DNA of 64,000 bases from Octopus vulgaris (lineage: Eukaryota), in contig OX597822.1 of the NCBI GenBank assembly GCA_951406725.2, forward strand, positions 91,078,001-91,142,000. Reading direction: 5' to 3'. The position numbers were made by a program, and so were the translations under genes. A model generated the notes under the pieces. The model did not search any database, was not told where the DNA came from, and saw nothing but the letters and a program-made list of their open reading frames with translations. Shown piece by piece: positions 1,109 through 37,026 of the stretch; the first letter of the stretch is position 1; every line of letters begins with the position of its first letter.

Positions 1109-3137
1109 ATTTGTATGTCTGTGATTGTCCCCACCACACACCATCATTTTGCAACCGATGTTGGTGTGTTTACATCTTTACTGTGGCAGTTCAGCAAAAG
1201 TATCTGATAGAATAAGTACTTGGCTTGCAAAGAATAGATCAGTACACTGTTGATGGGTGGTATGCAGCAGTGGCCATATATAGTTTTGCAAGCTTCATAA
1301 GTGATGGGGAAGCGAAATTATATGAAAAGTACAATAGTCAGGCTTATGTGATACTTAGAATATAAGGGCGGTTGCATAATGTCCCTTTAATCAAGGTATG
1401 AAGCGGGCCTGAATTTGTCAGAAAATGTTTTGTATATAGAATATTTTTAATGCTGAGTATATATTATAAAGAGTGACATGTTTCATCTTTGTGAATATGT
1501 GTGTGCGGGTGGCACGTAAAAAGCACCCACTACACTCACGGAGTGGTTGGCGTTAGGAAGGGCATCCAGCCGTAGAAACACTGCCAGATCAGACTGGGCC
1601 TGATGAAGCCTTCTGGCTTCACAGACCCCAGTAGAACCATCCAACCCATGCTAGCATGGAAAACGGACGCTAAACGATGATGATGATGATGTGTCAGTAT
1701 TGAGCTTGTTAGATTTTATTGTATAGATGTGGTATTGAGAGAGTGGCTAGCTGGGCTGTTTGAAAAGGAGACCAGTTAAGTACCTCTTTTGGCTCTGCAT
1801 TTCAGGTTAACCTTTTACCACAGTATCTTTTTATGTAGCAGTCATCCTTCATTACATACCTATACCAAGTTCTCTCTTGCACACTACATCTGATTTTCCT
1901 TATAATCATTTTTTCTTGCAGTTCAGTTGTACTGTGGTATTTATGCACACTGATATTGCACATTTATTGGAACACGATTGATTCATTTCTTTCTGGCTTT
2001 TGCAAATCTGCATTCAAAATCCACATCTCACTACCCTGCAGCATTGCAGTTCAAACAATCTACTCTTCTCTCTGTTGGAGAACGCTGCTCACTATTACTT
2101 TTTCCTTTTCTGGTTAGTGTTCAGTTAGAATGTCTGCATGTTGAAATCTATAGAAATAATATTATTTAGTTTGTATATGGATAAATGCAGACAGGTAACA
2201 TAGCTGTGTTGTTGAAAGTTTGCTTGTCAACCACATGGTTTCAGTTTTTAATTCAGTCTTGCTGCATAGCACCTTGGGCAAGATTCTTCTATTATAACCC
2301 CAAGCTAACCATGGCCTGTGAATGAATTTGGTAGGTGGAAGCTAGGTGTTATTACCATCCTTGGAAACAGGTATGAATTTGAGTTAGTAACAAGAAGGAC
2401 ATCTGGGCATAGAAAACTTGCTTAAATAAACTTCATCCAACTCATGAACATGAAGTGGATGTTAAAATGATGATGGATGGCACCTTTAAGTTATTGAGCA
2501 CAGATTTTGTTTTATAGATGCATGTAGTCAGTTATTAACATTAACAATGTACAGGCAAGACTATACACCAAATGGTGAGTTGAACCTATGGGCTAGCAGT
2601 TTTGCTTGTGTGTTGTATATGACAAAGGCTTTGCTTGGTATCAAAGGTGTAAGCATTGCTTTTGGCAAAATTAAGCAGCTGGTACAATTGGCTTTTTAGA
2701 TTTGCTCACCATTTTAATTGGAAGAGCTTGTATTTGTGGTGATTGCTTTGTTAATATGGTTCAAGGACAAGGGGTTAGTTATTGAGTTGGTGGCCAGATC
2801 TGACAAAAATGGCAGGTTTAGAAATCCAGTGTAATTGAAGATATTAGTTACTGCAGGCAGTTCAGATAGCAAATGGTTTGGTGTCCCCATAGCAGTTGTG
2901 TCTATATGAGAAATGATATAAGAACAAAAGTGAAGTCTGCTAGTGTTTGCAGAAGTTAGATCCTACCTATTCCACTTAGGCACTAGGGGATGTTGTAGCT
3001 TGTGTTTGTCATAAACCAAGTTCACTGAAGAAAGTTTTCAGGATTTGAGGGAATCCCCCACCCCCAAGAAAAAATTGTTTGCTCAACATTGTCCATTTGT
3101 CAATCATTTTTATTCATTTTGGATTTCTCTTTATTAG

Positions 3138-3220
3138 GATGCTGTGAAAAGGAAAGCTGTTGGTATCTGGAATTGTAAATCTTGTAGAAAAATTGTAGCT
3201 GGAGGTGCATGGTCTTATAG
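3138..3220 (+). CDS. RPL37A: 60S ribosomal protein L37a (eL43), penultimate coding exon
   Basis: ttattAG acceptor at 3136-37. Translates DAVKRKAVGIWNCKSCRKIVAGGAWSY(S), the eL43 zinc-finger half. GTAAGG donor at 3221, phase 2. Upstream exons were not found in the window. Confidence 0.95.
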
Positions 3221-3418
3221 GTAAGGTTTTGTTTTTGTTGTTTTTTTTATAGTTGGAGGGGTGCAAATTTTAAAAATGTATATATTCTCAAATTCCAATG
3301 CCAAAGGGGGTTGTTTTCTAAATATTTAATGGGGTTTTAAAGAATGGACTCAGCTATGTGTATATATGCACACATTTCAACCTGAGCTGCTTAGTGCTCA
3401 ACGGGTTGGAAGAAATAT

Positions 3419-3567
3419 TACCTTAAGATCCATAAATATTCGTGTGGTGTATCTTAATCTTTCTCCATGAAGGGGCAGATGATTGCTATTCTAGCTACAC
3501 ATACACTGTGTCCATTAACCCCTTACTGTTTATAATGCAGGGGACATTGTATTGGTAATAGACAAGT
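3419..3567 (+). ncRNA. Candidate intronic H/ACA snoRNA in last RPL37A intron
   Basis: Hairpin, then H-box AGATGA (3477-3482), then a second hairpin (CTATT/AATAG, GTGTCC/GGACAT), then ACA (3562-64) + 3 nt. Folded by eye only. Confidence 0.3.
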
Positions 3568-3803
3568 CAGAGAACTAGAGTTCTTCATTTAAAAATCTTG
3601 CCTTCAAAATGTTAGAATTTATTCTTCCACTGTTTCATCTGACACATGCATGAATTGAAAAATAGATGCTAAAGTGTTTATCCTTCTAAAATATTCAGGT
3701 ATTACACTCCATAAATCAGTCAGTTAAATTTTGTAAAATGTATTCAAGTATTATAAAAGTTAAGACAGATTTATAGAGCATTATTTTTTTTTTGTTATTT
3801 CAG

Positions 3804-3867
3804 TACAACAGCTGCAGTTACAGTTCGTAGTGCCATAAGACGTTTGCGGGACATGAAGGAATCCTAA
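3804..3867 (+). CDS. RPL37A: 60S ribosomal protein L37a, last coding exon
   Basis: Poly-T + CAG acceptor. Translates (S)TTAAVTVRSAIRRLRDMKES*. Phase matches the previous exon. TAA at 3865-3867. Confidence 0.95.
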
Positions 3868-3887
3868 ACTTAATGGTTTTCCTGATC

Positions 3888-3893
3888 AATAAA
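3888..3893 (+). terminator. Polyadenylation signal of RPL37A
   Basis: AATAAA 20 nt after the stop, followed by GT/T-rich sequence. Confidence 0.75.
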
Positions 3894-4689
3894 TATTTAA
3901 AAAATTATATACTTGGTGGGTTTCATTTTCTTTGAGTATCATCAGATAACCAGCATGTGTGGACAATACTAAGTAGTCCAAAATAAGCAAGAAAATATGT
4001 GTACAGCAAGGTTCATCTTAGCTTTGCAAAAGTGTCCTGTATATGAAAATTCATATAGATATTGAATTGTCCTTATTTGTTCTCTGCTCTTGAAGTTACT
4101 ATGAACTCAATGTGATTACTCTTTGAATTTATATGTCCAGCCTGTCAAGTGGTCTTCTGGGTACTGACCTAAAGCTATAGTTGAATGCACATGCCCATAA
4201 TGTTAGTAATGGAATAGAAACTGGGATCTCTTAATTGTGGAGCAAGCCTACTCATGTCTACATGATTCCTGAAATAATAATAGAGCATAGTTTTCTGGTA
4301 TGATAGTAAACTAGGTTTCTGAGATATAGGCAATATAAAGTTAGAATTTGGTGATAATATTGGATAGATACTTAAATTGCTCTGTCCAAAATCATTTTGA
4401 TTGGTTATATTTGTGTTGTCATTGACACTGTATGGGCAGTGAGGTAATGTACCTTATTTAAAAGAAATCTTGCTGCCAACTTCGAGAAAGTTAATACAAA
4501 ACCAGTTATGGTGGAAAGCCGCCTATTCGAACCTGATGTTTCCAGAATTCTTGTATTAACTAAACCCACTTGGGTTAAGCAACAGTATGATTTCATGTTC
4601 ATTCCTGCCATGAAACTATAGCAAATGTTTTGTATGGATCAATGCTACACAAGCTTCTCTGGTGTGCACACTGCTGCTGCATAGGCGGC

Positions 4690-16105: not shown

Positions 16106-16397
16106 TAGTGAAATTTATATGCCAACAGAATTTGGCCATCCTATAAAGGATGGTGTTACTGTTGTTTTAGCCCCAGGAAAACATCTTTTCCAGCTGGCCA
16201 TCGACACACAGTCGATGTGTATCACTTAAAGAATATACAGTATTTGCAAGTGGAGAGAGCTTTCATCACTAGCTAGTGGTTTTCTCACAATGAGGACAGG
16301 TCTGTGAATATCATGTAAGTCTAGAGATGGGGCAAAAACAACAGTAACATAGTCCTTTATAGGACTGCCACATTCAGTTGGCATATAAACTTTACTA
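16106..16397. mobile_element. Inverted-repeat mini-element related to 33118-33566
   Basis: ~70-bp arms (16106-16176 / 16329-16397). The arm shares GCCAA..AAT.TGGCAGTCC..AGGA..GC.CCA with the 33118 element. Confidence 0.7.
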
Positions 16398-20110: not shown

Positions 20111-20119
20111 CTCATCTTT

Positions 20120-20455
20120 TGGAAGGATCAGAATTCGATTTTAGACAAGGGCGAAAATTCAAAGTTAAATCCAACTTCACTTACACCTCAGAAAACCTCA
20201 TTTATGTTATCAGATGCTCGGACTGCCATAGAGTTGACAGGATTGTCAATCAGATGGAGATGTATGCTCCACAGACAACAGATATCCTCCTCGCAATATC
20301 GCCAGATATATCTCAATGAACACATTGACAGATGTGCAGAACAACTGCAACCACAATTCCTAATCTTCCCATTATATCAATTTGCTATTTGGATCTCAAC
20401 ACAAATATGACTAAACAAAGAGGTGTCATTTATCAAAAAATATAAGACGTAATTA
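20120..20455 (+). mobile_element. Second GIY-YIG (Penelope-like) fragment
   Basis: KFKVKSNFTYTSENLIYVIRCSDC...; frameshifted. Confidence 0.65.
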
Positions 20456-21447
20456 AATTAGAAACCCATATTGAAAATTTAGAGATTTACCTACTGTAAA
20501 ATACCTTGGTTACCAATTATCCCCACTAGCAATCAAAATGTCTAACTCAGAAATTCATCTAAAATTCATAATTTGAAAAGCGATAACAAACCTCAAGACA
20601 AGAAAAAATACAATGATCGCCCATGTCCAATTTATATTATAGAAATACATACACACACACACACACACACCTATATAAATATATATATATATATTTTTAC
20701 ATTCATTCATTTGTTTTTGCTGGCATAGGTTAAACACAAACTTATTTGAGGAAGCATTTTTACAGTCAGATACCCTTCTTTTTACCAACTCTTTCCTTCT
20801 TTCAAGGGAGATTTTATTCTTCTATTCTAAGACAACAGAGGTATGGGATGTAATGTTCACAGGGAACGTAAATAAATACATCACTTTTCACTCAAATGAT
20901 CTCATGCAAGAAGCAGAGACAAAAACTTACCAGATACACACATAAAGGCATACATAACAGGCTTTCAGAGTTTCAATCAAACAATTTCACTCACAAAGCA
21001 ATGGTCAGCACAAAGCAATAGCAGAAGGTTCCATGTAGTGGGATTGAACCTAAGGCCATATATTTGCAAAACAAACTGCTTCCAACCACATAGTTTCAGG
21101 TTCAGATCCACTGCATGGCACCCTAGGTAAGTGTCTTCTACTATAGCCCCAGGTGGACCAAAGCCTCATGAGTTGACAGAAACTGGAAGAAGACTGTCAT
21201 ATATGTAGGTATATATGTAAGAATATGCGTGTTGCCTTATCTTGACATCACATGATACATGTAAATAAGTGTCACCGTCACACAGAAGTGTCATTCATTT
21301 CCAATATTCTGGGGAAACATGTCTGGACATGCAGAAATAATATCTTGCTTGGAAACAGGAAAGGCAACAAACCATAGAAAATCTGGTTCAATAAACTCTC
21401 TCAGACAAGCATAGAAAAATTAAAGCAGTGGTGCCACCGCTGCCCCA

Positions 21448-28904: not shown

Positions 28905-29640
28905 GGAGAGCTTGGTGTGGGTAGAGTGGGAAGAAAAGAAGTTAAGGTATGAGTGTGAATTGGTGTGTTTGTAGTGGATGGAGGTAGTGAGAGTGGAGTG
29001 GTGTATGCTGACTGAAATGTCAAGAAATGTGACAGAAGTGTTGCAAATAGTGTAGGAGAATTTGAGGGCAGGATGGAAGAATTGAACAAAAGAGGGGAAG
29101 GAGTCTAATTGTTCGCAGGAGTGTGAAGTCACACTAATACAGTCATCAATATAACGACTATATAATTTGGGAGTGGGACCAGTGAATCATGAGAATATTT
29201 GAGCCTCAATGTAGCCAACAAAAGGTTCGCACAGTTGGGGTCCATTCTCGTTCCCATGGCCACTCCCAAGATCTATTGAGGGAGAGAACAAGTTTGGCCA
29301 AATGAAGAAGTTTGAAGATGTCAGGTTGGGATTGGGTCGAAAATGTAGAAAGTGTTTGAGTGCAAGAAGTCCTTCATTGCATGGGATCACCATACATAGA
29401 CTCTCAATATAAAGAGTGAAGAGAAGTTTAGAGGGATCAGGAGGAAAGGAGAAAGAGTTGAAGAAACAGAGAACATGGTTAGTGTCATAGAGAGTGGAGG
29501 GAAGCCACTAGGGGAGCACGGACATGGTCGAAGTATTTTGAGTTCAATTCTGTGGGGCAGTTACAGGCAGAGACAATAGGGCAGCCAGGGTTGTTGAGCT
29601 GGTGGATTTGGGGAAGGAAGTAAATGGTGGGGTACGTGGG
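28905..29640 (-). mobile_element. Penelope-like element RT fragment
   Basis: RYIDDCI, FLDISVSI...TTSIHYKHTNSHSYLNFFSSH; similar to 14140-14700. Confidence 0.75.
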
Positions 29641-32340: not shown

Positions 32341-32373
32341 GTAATATATACATACACACATATACATATATAT

Positions 32374-32885
32374 ATCATCATCATCATCGTTTAATGTCCG
32401 CTTTCCATGCTAGCATGGGTTGGACGAATGGCAGAGGGCTGGCGAACCAGATGGCTGCACCAGGCTTCAATCTTGATCTGGCAGAGTTTCTACAGCTGGA
32501 TGCCCTTCCTAACGCCAACCACTCCAAGAGTGTAGTGGGTGCTTTTACGTGCCACCGGCATGGGGCCAGCAGGCGGTACTGGCAACGACCTCACTCAAAT
32601 CTTTTACGCATGCCACCGGCACAGGTGCCAGTAAGGCGATGCTGGTAACGATCACACTCGAATGGTTTTTTACATGCCACCGGCACAGAGGCCAGATAGC
32701 AGCTCTGACAACGATCACGCTCAGATAGTGCTCTTTAAGGCGACGCTGGTAACGATAATGCTCGAATGGTGCTTTTAAGTGCCGCTGGCACAGAAGCCGG
32801 TTAGCCACTCTGTCAATGGTCACACTTGTACAGTGCTCTTTGCACCCTGCTAGCACAGACGCCAGTCATCGAATTTGATTTTGAT
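32374..32885 (-). mobile_element. Short retroposon family B ((GAT)n tail, internal ~45-60-bp tandem units)
   Basis: TGGCACGTAAAAAGCACCCACTACACTC...GGCATCCAGCTGTAGAAAC...GATGATGAT. Other copies at ~738-980, 1509-1690, 9848-10062, 21490-21982, 28680-28902, 33690-34250, 44620-44790, 49210-49430 and 63177-63262. Confidence 0.85.
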
Positions 32886-33117
32886 TATTGATTTATGTGT
32901 CTTATAAAACTATTCTGCACATACAATAACAGCCATACCAACAATCCAACATACCTCAATCATCAGCTGCTCCATGGATATCACTATGGTTTCGACACCA
33001 GGGCAGTACCTATCAATCTATCAGTGTCTCACACACACAAACACGCACATATATCTATAATAAAGTATTTATGTTTATATATATATAGATATACATAGAT
33101 AGACAGACAGACAGACA

Positions 33118-33566
33118 GATATTAACAGTTATCGCCAAGCTAATATGGCAGTCCATAAATATAGGATGAAAGCTGCCGTTGATTAGCTCCAATGACACAC
33201 GATTAGCTAAATGACACACGAACCGGTGTCCATTATAACCTCCGAACAGGGGAGATCAGCCGCTTCCCCTTGCTGGTTAGGCATCTGCAGACATGTTTCA
33301 GGGTATTTGCCCTTTATCAATGCAGAGTAGCCAAACCCAGCAGGCGTCGCTGCTGACCGTCTGTTTAAAGGATTATTTACTTAATTTCAGTGGAATACAT
33401 CCACTGGTTTTCAAAAATAGACCTCCCCAGTTCAACGATTATAATGGACACAGGTTTGTGTGTCATATAGCTAGCTAAAGGCAAAGGGCTCTTGGAGCTA
33501 ATCAATGGTAGCTTTCGTCCTATATTTATGGACTGCCATTTTAGCTTGTTGATAACCGTTAATATC
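33118..33566. mobile_element. Inverted-repeat mini-element with central hammerhead
   Basis: ~140-bp imperfect arms (33118-33258 / 33420-33566) around a spacer containing the 33285-33325 ribozyme. Confidence 0.8.
33285..33325 (-). ncRNA. Minimal type-I hammerhead ribozyme, U3-A8 core variant
   Basis: Minus strand reads CTGCA-TTGATAA-AGGG caaata CCCT-GAAA-CATG-TC-TGCAG: 5-bp stem I, 4-bp stem II, palindromic ACATGT helix III, GUC cleavage triplet. Confidence 0.75.
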
Positions 33567-34393
33567 CAGTACCGCTACTGTAGTCTCCTTCAGAGAGAAA
33601 TGCCAAGACAACAAAAGAATGATAGAGACTTTGATATTATTATTATGTAAATAGAGGAATGTATCTGTAAATATATGCATACCTTTCCCCAGGGTGCAAA
33701 GAGCACCATACGAGTGTGACCATTGACAGAGCGGTTAACCGGCTTCCATGCCAGTGGGACTTAAAAAGCACCATTTGAGCATGATCGTTACCAGTATCGC
33801 CTTAAATATATGCATACCTTCCCCACTTATGCATACCTTTCCTTCTTGGGACACAAAACTTTGCTTGTGAAGACCTGTTGAGGCAAGTGAAATCGAAATC
33901 GCTCAAAAATCAATGGAAATTGTAGTTGTGATACCAGTGTTGGTGGCACATAAAAAGATGCATCCGAATGTGGCCATTGCCAGTGCCGCCTTGACTGGCC
34001 TCTGTGCCGGTGGCACGTAAAATGCACCAACCAATCGTGGCCGTTGCCAGCCTCGCCTGTCACCTGTGCCAGTGGCATGTAAAAAGCACCCACTACACTC
34101 ACGGAGTGGTTGGCGTTAGGAAGGGCATCCAGCTGTAGTAACACTGCCAGATCAGACTGGGCCTGGTGCAGCCTCCTGGCTTCCCAGACCCCAGTCAAAC
34201 CGTCCAACCCGTGCTAGCATGGAAAGTGGACGTTAAACGATGATGATGACGATATGTGACAATTATTCGGTAGCCATGCTAAAACTTTATATATACATAT
34301 ATATATAACATAGGTACTTTATTATTAAAGCTTCAAAACATCACAAAAAACTGCTACACTGTGTGTCATGTTCCCATTCGTTGAACAATTGTG

Positions 34394-34435
34394 AACTGTC
34401 AGACGAATGGAAACATGAACCTCTGAGTAGCAGTT
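34394..34435 (+). ncRNA. Degenerate type-I hammerhead motif
   Basis: AACTGT-CAGACGA-ATG gaaa CAT-GAAC-CTC t GAG-TA-GCAGTT. All three stems are present, with two core substitutions. Confidence 0.55.
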
Positions 34436-34570
34436 TTTTGTGATATTTTTGTGATGTTTTGGAAGCTTTAATAATAAAACATATTACTCTACCTCCAGTA
34501 TTTGAGTACTATTTTTTCCCCACCCTGTTTCACATTTATCTGCTTATTCTGGTGTGTGTGTGTATGTGTA

Positions 34571-34691: not shown

Positions 34692-34742
34692 AGCTTCTAC
34701 AGGACTAGAACTGTTTCATTTCGATGAAATCTTCAGGAAGCT
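34692..34742 (-). ncRNA. Type-I hammerhead ribozyme motif
   Basis: Minus strand reads AGCTTC-CTGAAGA-tttcatcgaaat-GAAA-CAG ttctagtc CTG-TA-GAAGCT: intact core, 6-bp stem I, stem III, GUA triplet. Stem II is weak. Confidence 0.7.
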
Positions 34743-37026
34743 TTCAGGAAGATTTCATCGGAATGAAACAGTTCTAGTCCTGTAAACTCCTTCTATAAAA
34801 TAATATATATATATATATATATATAAAATCAAGAAGAGCTTTCTCTGAATGTATGTGTTTACTGAAAATATCATCTTCTGGTTCAGTATTTTATTTTCTT
34901 TCTTTGACACAAGCCACACGTTTGTATTAAAAGGACTATAATCGATTGAACCAATATCTGAATATGGATGATGTTTGCCAGAACCTCTAGCTAGTCGTTT
35001 GATGTGCTAAAAATAGCAACCAATTTCTCAAGTCACACTCAAACATCTTAAGGAGACAGACCTGAGACAACGTAGTTTTAGATACATTTAAAGGCAAAAT
35101 AAGCTAAAACAAGACAGTAATATATGAAACCTTTTAATTTGATTAGAGTTGATTTATGATTAAACAACAAAAATAATAATGGGTTTAGGATAAGCATGAA
35201 TGCCATACTTTCTACAAATGTTTACGGATAATCTTTCTTATTGGCGGACTTTCGGAATAGCTATCCCGACCTTATTGGAGAAGGCAAAGGCCCAGGAATG
35301 GATGGTTGTTTTCTTTTGTGAAAGAATTTTGTTATCTAAAAAATTTAATTCCCCCCCCACACACACACACAATATGTACTCTTTTCAGGTAAATAGTACA
35401 AAAATACCTTACTTCCTAGTCTCCACCTTAAGAACAAAATCACAGGCTTTTACGCATGTGTGGAGGAAAATAAACACTATTAACGATTTCAGAACATAAT
35501 CATCAGATATACAATATCAGTAGAATTAAATCAATAACAACCATTGAGTCAAAAAGTGAGACATATTTCAAGGAGGAAGGATTAAAATTTCAAGCTGGGA
35601 GAATAAACTACATATATTGTTCAGTACTATGTTATATGGTGAAGGAATGACTATTATATATATATTTATATATACTAATGTATAGTGTAAACTCCACTCC
35701 CCCACTCACTTTCTTTTTTTCCTTTTGTGAAATGAGTTGGCCGTTTCATTAAAATGTTAGTTTTCTTGTGCGTCGTTGGATGGGGACGAATTAGGGGGGG
35801 GGGCGCTGGTTTTGAGATCAATTAAATTAATTGCTAGTTAAAAAGAATAGTTTAGCCTGGGATTTTAAGGAGCTTGTTTAGAATGGCTTTTAAGTGCAAC
35901 AAAATATCACGTCACCAGATACAAGCAACCAATCTAGCTAATTGTTAACTGACTCGTAAATAAGTAGACAAATTAGCCTGTTTTTATTATCAAATTTAAA
36001 AAAAAAAAAAAGAAAATTCATCAGTTTGTTTCATTTTTTTTTTTTTTCGGTTGCAAAATGCTCTGGACCCAGGTTAAAATAGGTACAACAAATCTAATCA
36101 GAAGAAAATGTCAAGTTAGATTTTTTTTTCTCTCTCTCTCTTCCTTCCACCCTAACTTTGAAGCTCGACTAGAAATCGTGACGAAGTGTAAACAAGATTT
36201 ATTAAGGAAAAAAAGGACTGCTTTGATAAAAACACTTGAAACAAGAAAGGAACCTGTTAAAATAGTCTCCGTTGGTAACAAACCTGTAAATGTTAATAGG
36301 GAGGAGGAGGTAAGTGAAAGATGATCTATTTTTACCGGATACTTTATGTAACAGTTTACCAACCATATTCGGAGGAAACGAAAATTCATTTATACCCTTA
36401 ACTCCGTCACATCGGAATACATTCTGCTTCATAAGATTGGAACACAAAAATAAACACAGCTTATTAAATATAAAGAAAAGAGATTTGTTAATATTCTCCG
36501 CCTCACCAAATAATATAACGATTTTTGGATAAGTTCAGTTTGTCATTAAATTTGTATTTAAACATTTGGCGTATTTATTTATTAATGGAAAGAGAGAGAG
36601 AGAGAAAAAAACAAGCAGTGATATATCTTTGTTTCTTACATCCATATAAGATATCAGATCACCTCAATAAAATGTTAAACAATAAAATGTTAAACGACCA
36701 CCGGCTATATCAAAAACGGAAATAGATTAGGGAGACAAAATTATGTTAGGAATGCTGAGAAGTAAAAAATGAGAGAGGAAGAGCGAATAGAATGTGATCA
36801 TATAGGACACACACACACACGGGAGAATATAAACGGAAATAAATATAAACAGAATCAGCTGTATAAAAATAAACATATAAACACATGAACAGAGAGATGC
36901 AGTTATTGTATTAAGAAAATGTAGTCGCTCACTAAGCTAAAGTAATGCATGGCATTAAAATACAAATACAGGTGTGGTTATGTTTAACAACAGGTATGAA
37001 AGAGAGGAGATGTGTGCAATACCTAC

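What the first reader, a model, noticed from the sequence alone, without database searches (positions are those of the whole stretch)
33118..33566. Inverted-repeat mini-element carrying a hammerhead with a compensatory U3-A8 core
Seen: ~140-bp inverted arms flank a spacer whose minus strand reads CTGCA TTGATAA AGGG-caaata-CCCT GAAA CATG TC TGCAG. Both stems are perfect, but the canonical CUGAUGA is UUGAUAA. Established: C3 and G8 form a tertiary Watson-Crick pair in hammerheads and U3-A8 preserves it; minimal type-I hammerheads with a palindromic helix III (here ACAUGU) are typical of Penelope-like elements and cleave as dimers. Inference: this is a non-autonomous, MITE-shaped, ribozyme-bearing element mobilised by Penelope machinery, and CUGANGA searches would miss it. 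The double change could be selected covariation, although two chance transitions cannot be excluded.
Basis: partly seen in the sequence, partly recalled or inferred. Interest (0 to 1): 0.85.

Follow-up and report, generated by a model that had tools for sequence, protein, structure and literature searches.

The report
Penelope-spread retrozyme with U3-A8 hammerhead
This is one old copy of an abundant family of ~360-base non-coding repeats carrying a hammerhead-ribozyme fold with a known U3-A8 core swap, likely spread as RNA by Penelope-like retrotransposon proteins; the kind is known, but sister lineages in the same genome also spread with that core pair mismatched.

Summary
The hammerhead is real: minus strand 33326-33284, core UUGAUAA, predicted cut at 33290/33289. 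The MITE reading is wrong. The unit is a ~360-nt circularly permuted non-coding monomer (non-LTR retrozyme type). The 'arms' are a second, inverted, 5'-truncated copy: 32 of 54 loci have no inverted arm, arm length runs 33-381 nt, and copies end at two fixed sites ~55 nt apart, mostly in TA-rich DNA, the Penelope 'tail' signature. U3-A8 is fixed in this subfamily (0 of 100 listed copies have C3), so it is inherited, not chance decay here. Natural U3-A8 is already published (2011, 2014). Across related lineages (1301 motif matches) helices I-III covary, including the palindromic helix III. Positions 3/8 take all four states (U-A 1038, C-G 120, U.G 88, C.A 55), and a young C.A lineage occupies 17 loci, so 'rarely mixed' is only partly right. 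A young Penelope-like family with intact ORFs carries the same U3-A8 core (1578 matches) and is a candidate helper. Cleavage, expression and helper identity are untested. New member of a known kind.

The parts
33118..33421 (-). Main copy: 304 nt of the ~360-nt retrozyme monomer (unit positions 1-311), 5'-truncated, 3' end at the first fixed end site
   Evidence: BLAST to a natural monomer, 89%; 7.2% from the column majority of 44 subfamily rows, the most diverged of them
33420..33598 (+). Second, inverted, 5'-truncated copy (unit positions 165-343); carries no hammerhead; forms the apparent 'TIR'
33566..33598 (+).
   Evidence: 15 of 22 inverted pairs have one arm ending at each site
33284..33326 (-). 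Type I hammerhead: helix I 6 bp, core UUGAUAA (U3 33320, A8 33315), helix II 4 bp with loop CAAAUA, GAAA, palindromic helix III ACAUGU, C17 at 33290
   Evidence: sequence; descriptor with shuffle control; covariation across lineages
33250..33365 (-). Bulged rod that extends helix I
   Evidence: predicted fold -48.6 kcal/mol, z -4.2
33049..33119 (.). TA/TAGA/CAGA microsatellite flank at the 3' end of the main copy (likely insertion target)
   Evidence: similar TA-rich flanks at most other copy ends

Best explanation
The element is an old, truncated insertion of a ~360-nt non-coding repeat with a type I hammerhead fold (a non-LTR retrozyme), which is likely transcribed as tandem RNA, predicted to self-cleave as a dimer, and likely copied back into AT-rich DNA by a Penelope-like reverse transcriptase/endonuclease. 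Shown: a circularly permuted monomer, head-to-tail partial tandems, scattered 5' truncation, two fixed 3' ends about 55 nt apart, inverted second copies with 3' ends facing outward, and structure-preserving changes in all three helices between lineages. Inferred: tandem copies give multimeric RNA; two hammerheads pair through the palindromic helix III and cut after C17; monomers circularise; a Penelope protein nicks AT-rich DNA and starts cDNA at two internal sites, one per strand, which yields the inverted pair with a one-sided tail. U3-A8 is an inherited replacement of C3-G8 that keeps the Watson-Crick pair, but the pair is only loosely constrained in this radiation. This particular copy has one hammerhead and no tandem partner, so it is probably inert.
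For: Copies: 2210 first-look candidates; 185 exact core-plus-helix-II matches, control 0. Architecture in 54 distinct loci: 32 have one orientation only; 22 are inverted pairs, all with 3' ends outward and arms of 33-381 nt; 26 have runs longer than one unit. L054 holds 2.3 tandem units. In 15 of 22 pairs one arm ends at each fixed site. PMC11167929 (text parts 1-2 of 4 read) shows that two internal RT start sites make this tail in an anole PLE and that the enzyme cuts AT-rich DNA. PMC8557442 (passages) describes the inverted truncated copy and tail. In 16 hand-picked lineage representatives: helix I pairs 1, 2 and 6 are 16/16 Watson-Crick with 2-3 pair types; helix III pair 3 is 16/16 with 4 types; G5, A6 and A9 are invariant, but they were fixed by the search pattern. 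Helix III is self-complementary in 91 of 104 motifs. Two circular monomers fold at z = -6.9 and a third at -2.9. Monomer GC is 0.44 and the longest ATG ORF is 78 codons. Mussel retrozymes are 350-390 bp (PMC7229834, parts 2-3 of 6). Intact 781-aa RT+GIY-YIG ORFs, 96.6-99.5% identical to each other, exist in the genome.
Against: No cleavage, circle or expression datum exists. Mixed 3/8 cores are amplified (U.G 88, C.A 55 of 1301), and 10.1-11.1 is unpaired in 5 of 16 representatives. Both argue that catalysis is weakly selected. A U4C subfamily also exists. No sequence link was found between the monomer's end region and the 3' regions of 15 PLE loci, or between the monomer and 40 PLE loci outside inserted retrozyme copies, so the helper is unidentified. 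Only 1 of 9 predicted Xenopus retrozyme dimers cleaved in vitro (bioRxiv 10.64898/2026.07.22.740005, parts 1-3 of 5). No long target-site duplication was found at this copy. Loci were selected by similarity to the window copy or by an intact core, which biases toward conserved, longer copies.
Confidence: 0.72

Rival explanations
1. Same element and same Penelope-driven spread, but self-cleavage is dispensable. The hammerhead fold is kept as a structural or protein-binding element, or is weakly active, and copies are made from uncleaved tandem transcripts.
For: A young C3.A8 lineage has 24 matches at 17 loci on 10 contigs, against 33 for its U-A sister. It includes a tandem trimer and forms a clade with support 100/99 and mostly <2% branches. 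U.G lineages: about 46 and 18 of 88 matches (hand count). Copy ends lie 180 and 235 nt from the cleavage site. Hammerhead-dead mutants did not impair insertion of an anole PLE in vitro (PMC11167929).
Against: Helix III stays palindromic through at least 7 different sequences, which is hard to explain without dimer function. With the 5' core left free, G5/A6/A9 changes among the 100 listed matches (of 1228) are sporadic rather than lineage-wide (read by eye). 1158 of 1301 cores keep a Watson-Crick 3-8 pair.
Confidence: 0.2
2. The copies are just 5'-truncated pseudo-LTR ends of a coding Penelope element.
For: The insertion pattern is the same as for PLEs, and the local PLE family has the same core letters UUGAUAA...GAAACAUGU.
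Against: Extended copies wrap round into the monomer's own 3' end instead of entering an ORF. Only 1 of 150 held retrozyme loci has PLE protein similarity, and it lies beyond a 3' end. The PLE's own pLTR and hammerhead (A/U-rich helix I, different helix II) do not align with the monomer.
Confidence: 0.05
3. A MITE: a DNA-transposon derivative with ~140-bp terminal inverted repeats that happens to carry a hammerhead.
For: The window copy, seen alone, has inverted arms.
Against: 32 of 54 loci have no inverted arm, arm length varies 33-381 nt, tandems occur, and the ends are asymmetric. No convincing TSD.
Confidence: 0.02

Closest known systems
Non-LTR retrozymes of animals (Cervera & de la Pena 2020, PMC7229834; Li et al. 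bioRxiv 10.64898/2026.07.22.740005)
   Same: Non-coding monomer of 357-366 nt (mussel: 350-390), canonical type I hammerhead with short palindromic helix III, GC <50%, tandems plus dispersed monomers, strongly self-paired fold, co-occurrence with PLEs
   Different: U3-A8 core in about 80% of motif matches and lineage-wide U.G, C.A, U4C and 10.1-11.1 variants, none of which appeared in the parts read (the 2020 supplement could not be read). Frequent inverted pairs with a PLE tail; no long TSD seen here. circRNA and cleavage not shown.
U3-A8 hammerheads of Schistosoma mansoni Cercyon PLEs (PMC4209133) and other natural U3-A8 cases (PMC3088659)
   Same: The same 3-8 covariation; about 1,300 hits reported in S. 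mansoni
   Different: Those were found through PLE minimal hammerheads; this one has canonical geometry (helix I 6 bp, helix II 4 bp) in a non-coding monomer
EN+ Penelope-like elements (PMC8557442; Poseidon PAc, PMC11167929)
   Same: 5' truncation, partial tandems, inverted truncated copy, tail between two end sites, AT-rich targets, hammerhead
   Different: No ORF; tail about 55 nt rather than 30-40; no sequence homology to the PLE pLTRs tested
MITEs (definition recalled, not from a call)
   Same: Short, non-coding, high copy; this copy shows inverted arms
   Different: Arms are optional and variable; RNA-type truncation pattern; no TSD

Membership tests
Type I hammerhead ribozyme | Core N3 U4 G5 A6 N7 N8 A9 / G12 A13 A14 / A15.1-U16.1 / H17 with 3-8 paired | tested here: met
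   U3-A8 accepted as a natural covariant in PMC3088659 section 8
Type I hammerhead ribozyme | Three helices supported by covariation | tested here: met
   (16 hand-picked representatives; related sequences, not independent events)
Type I hammerhead ribozyme | Match to an Rfam hammerhead model | tested here: not met
   C3-G8 relatives are missed too
Type I hammerhead ribozyme | Self-cleavage 3' of position 17 | not testable with these tools
   needs an assay
Type I hammerhead ribozyme (canonical) | Loop 1-loop 2 tertiary contact | tested here: inconclusive
   Loop 2 CAAAUA was fixed by the search pattern; a bulged extension of helix I is predicted; likeness to the S. mansoni loops is recalled, not from a call
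PLE minimal hammerhead (min-HHR) | Helix II 7-8 bp, helix I 4-5 bp, extra base between 9 and 10.1 | tested here: not met
   helix I 6 bp, helix II 4 bp, no extra base versus PMC4209133
Non-LTR retrozyme | Non-coding monomer 150-450 bp, GC <50%, with type I hammerhead | tested here: met
Non-LTR retrozyme | Head-to-tail tandem repeats | tested here: met
   Met at family level: 26 of 54 loci exceed one unit, L054 has 2.3 units, sister lineages have trimers. The window copy itself is under one unit.
Non-LTR retrozyme | Expression as circular RNA | not testable with these tools
   only contigs of runs not on record as RNA were offered
Non-LTR retrozyme | Long target-site duplication when present | tested here: inconclusive
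   only 5-6-nt microsatellite-like matches at the window copy; other copies not tested
PLE-mobilised insertion | 5' truncation, inverted truncated copy, one-sided tail, AT-rich target | tested here: met
PLE-mobilised insertion | Identified autonomous partner sharing terminal sequence | tested here: not met
   only the GIY-YIG top hits were examined (30 loci fetched of 150 scored of 6136 candidates, plus 10 longer stretches)
MITE | Fixed terminal inverted repeats, uniform length, TSD | tested here: not met

The most novel reading that the evidence does not exclude
This genome holds a natural mutational walk through a ribozyme's catalytic core. Retrozyme lineages move between C3-G8 and U3-A8 by way of U.G and C.A states that are themselves mobile, so the 3-8 pair is not needed for spread in vivo while the palindromic dimer helix is. 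The dominant U3-A8/ACAUGU lineage shares its core with a still-intact Penelope helper, which would allow a reconstituted helper-plus-retrozyme transposition system and possibly helper-retrozyme heterodimer cleavage.
Probability: 0.3. Interest if true: 0.68.

Novelty: new member of a known kind. Interest (0 to 1): 0.42.

Why it matters
About 1040 retrozyme-type motif matches and 1578 PLE-type matches in one genome (the latter almost all U3-A8 among those listed) are invisible to CUGANGA descriptors, and Rfam missed the motifs scanned, so ribozyme censuses undercount. Two open questions become directly testable: which machinery mobilises animal retrozymes (the two-end tail signature points to Penelope RT, and intact ORFs are on hand), and whether hammerhead cleavage is needed for spread (natural, recently amplified C-G, U-A, U.G and C.A variants in closely related backgrounds). 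The window copy itself is an ordinary decayed insertion.

Tried and rejected
Rfam scans: no hammerhead hit at the locus or in 10 relative/PLE loci; the microRNA and snoRNA matches are below gathering scores and mostly microsatellite or hairpin noise. Expression: no RNA holder listed. Contigs of four runs (three guessed RNA, one unknown kind) cover the monomer and show the end-to-start joint, but that joint exists in genomic tandems too, so it is no evidence for circles or transcription. Helper link: local alignments of the monomer's end region to 15 PLE 3' regions did not beat shuffles. Shared ACAUGU with the PLE is weak evidence, since only four 2-nt palindromic loops are possible. Direction of 3/8 changes: C-G nests inside U-A in the tree that includes the core (113 rows, 19 dropped by a helix-I filter), but this is unresolved in the downstream-only tree (115 rows; 12 of the first 60 loci kept, 5 chance-like loci dropped). 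Neither bootstrap converged, so no order of events is claimed. The copy-level 2x2 association of positions 3 and 8 was not used as proof of covariation, because copies are not independent. The MAFFT alignment of 16 representatives misaligned helix III, so pairs were counted by anchored parsing. A Pfam family recalled for PLEs is not in the library. Lunse et al. 2017 is not held. Earlier-findings look-ups were empty. Literature searches found no description of this family, but the supplement of PMC7229834 and one file of PMC4209133 were unreadable, and Repbase/Dfam were not available.

Full report
Observation. The motif is as described. The minus strand reads TCTGCA TTGATAA AGGG CAAATA CCCT GAAA CATG T C TGCAGA from 33326 to 33284. 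U3 is 33320, A8 33315 and C17 33290, so the predicted cut is at 33290/33289. A strict descriptor hits once in the window and never in 60 block-shuffled windows. The 116 nt around it fold at z -4.2. The arms (140 vs 147 nt) are 80% identical. Rfam finds no hammerhead here, nor in 10 other loci that include C3-G8 relatives. The genome is 2.8 Gb in 227 contigs. I take it to be an octopus-like mollusc from its size and a flanking repeat I recall; no call names it.

What the element is. The 171-nt middle has 2210 first-look candidates in G000, and the best 40 scored are 93-96% identical. Laid against one natural 362-nt unit, the copies show a circularly permuted monomer: the 3' end runs straight into the 5' start, and L054 holds 2.3 units. 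Among 54 distinct loci (60 fetched, 6 duplicates removed), 32 have one orientation only. The other 22 have an inverted partner of 33-381 nt, always with 3' ends outward, and 26 loci contain a run longer than one unit. 5' starts are scattered, while 3' ends cluster at unit positions 302-313 and about 358-366, mostly into TA-rich DNA. In 15 of 22 inverted pairs one arm stops at each site. This is not MITE anatomy. It matches the Penelope pattern in PMC8557442 (passages read) and PMC11167929 (parts 1-2 of 4), where two internal reverse-transcription starts produce the 'tail' and the endonuclease prefers AT-rich DNA. The monomer is 44% GC, has no ATG ORF over 78 codons, and folds as a circle at z -6.9. 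Size and features fit non-LTR retrozymes (PMC7229834, parts 2-3 of 6; bioRxiv 10.64898/2026.07.22.740005, parts 1-3 of 5). Only 1 of 150 held retrozyme loci has PLE protein similarity nearby, so these are not mere pLTR stubs. The window copy differs by 7.2% from the column majority, against a median of 4.1% in its 44-row subfamily and 1.3% in a younger 19-row subfamily. It has one hammerhead and no tandem partner, so it is probably inert (inference).

Positions 3 and 8. Within the subfamily the swap is inherited. Of 185 exact matches with 3, 4 and 8 left free, the 100 listed have U3 in 99 (one A3, no C3) and A8 in 99. That removes 'two chance transitions in this copy' but gives no covariation signal. 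A looser pattern (YTGANRA N4 CAAATA N4 GAAAC) gives 1301 matches against 24 for the reversed control. Of these, 120 are C-G, 88 U.G and 55 C.A, leaving 1038 U-A by subtraction. These belong to one radiation of ~357-366-nt elements. Two C-G clades lie outside. The window's clade is mostly U-A with a small C.A group. A sister clade has C-G, U-A, at least two U.G lineages, a U4C subfamily and a young C.A clade (15 rows, support 100/99 in a tree built without the core). That C.A lineage has 24 matches at 17 loci on 10 contigs, against 33 for its U-A sister, and includes a tandem trimer. In 16 hand-picked representatives the 3-8 pair is Watson-Crick in 11, U.G in 3 and C.A in 2, and 10.1-11.1 is unpaired in 5. 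By contrast helix I pairs 1, 2 and 6, helix II pairs 2-4 and all helix III pairs are 100% Watson-Crick, several with multiple pair types. Helix III takes the forms ACAUGU, ACGCGU, ACUAGU, ACCGGU, ACUGCAGU, ACUAUAGU and ACCURGGU and is self-complementary in 91 of 104 motifs. So the fold and the dimer helix look selected, and the 3-8 pair only loosely. Both trees have unsettled bootstraps and the direction of change is not resolved.

Helper. A GIY-YIG search finds many 781-aa open frames with RT and C-terminal GIY-YIG domains (the RT score is just under Pfam's cut-off). Four held copies are 96.6-99.5% identical, one flanked by a direct repeat. Their 3' regions carry a hammerhead-like motif with the same UUGAUAA...GAAACAUGU letters but an A/U-rich helix I and a different helix II. 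There are 1578 matches genome-wide, control 0, and 97 of the 100 listed are U3-U4-A8 (read by eye). Another PLE family has CUGAAGA/CCGAAGA cores. No homology links the monomer's ends to any PLE tested, so the helper is a candidate only.

Mechanism. Shown: the architecture, the covariation, and the co-existence of intact PLE ORFs. Inferred: tandem transcription, dimeric cleavage through helix III (PMC4209133, parts 1-2 of 4; low activity in vitro reported there), circularisation, and Penelope-primed reverse transcription from two internal sites. The main rival is that cleavage is dispensable: hammerhead-dead mutants still inserted in vitro in PMC11167929, and the mixed-core lineages fit that. 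Nothing here measures RNA or catalysis.

Known versus new. Natural U3-A8 covariation is in PMC3088659 (section 8) and PMC4209133 (about 1,300 S. mansoni hits linked to Cercyon PLEs). Mollusc retrozymes are in PMC7229834. Searches for this family in cephalopods returned no description; the giant squid paper only counts 235 Rfam hammerheads (passages). Unread supplements, the unavailable Lunse 2017 paper and repeat libraries may hold it. A search for C3U/G8A with hammerhead found nothing, and searches turned up no report of amplified U.G or C.A cores in the listings and passages I saw. Verdict: new member of a known kind, interest 0.42. The noteworthy extra is the four-state core in mobile lineages beside an intact candidate helper.

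Noticed in passing
window 32372-32850 and 33690-34255: Two copies of a very abundant repeat (at least 8 more pieces in the window) lie inverted around the retrozyme, with (CAT/GAT)n ends outward and 63-bp internal tandem units. Either a chance pair or a nested inverted insertion.
   Followed up: no
window 20116-20458 (+): Frameshifted 3' end of a Penelope-like GIY-YIG domain, 40-59% identical to the L161 ORF. No hammerhead seen by eye in the following 1 kb.
   Followed up: partly
window 28905-29426 (-): Degraded Penelope-like RT fragment, overlapped by a copy of the abundant repeat.
   Followed up: partly
window 16121-16209 (-): Old fragment, 74% similar to the sister retrozyme clade; no intact hammerhead core visible upstream.
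   Followed up: partly
L161:406-1482 and 1745-4087 (G000:C16): The young PLE family has a long upstream open frame (333-479 aa in five copies, no clear Pfam match) before the RT-EN ORF, and a CxxxxCxxC linker of Neptune/Nematis type (clade label inferred).
   Followed up: no
L134, L167: A second PLE family has a C3-G8 hammerhead-like motif with U4 in one copy and C4 in the other, echoing the CUGAAGA/CCGAAGA cores of one retrozyme lineage.
   Followed up: no
window 34335-34449 and 34698-34784: Two short foldback elements (56- and 42-nt arms, 3-nt spacers).
   Followed up: no
L020:320-691 (-): A truncated PLE endonuclease end lies 335 nt beyond a retrozyme 3' end; the only such case in 150 loci.
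   Followed up: no
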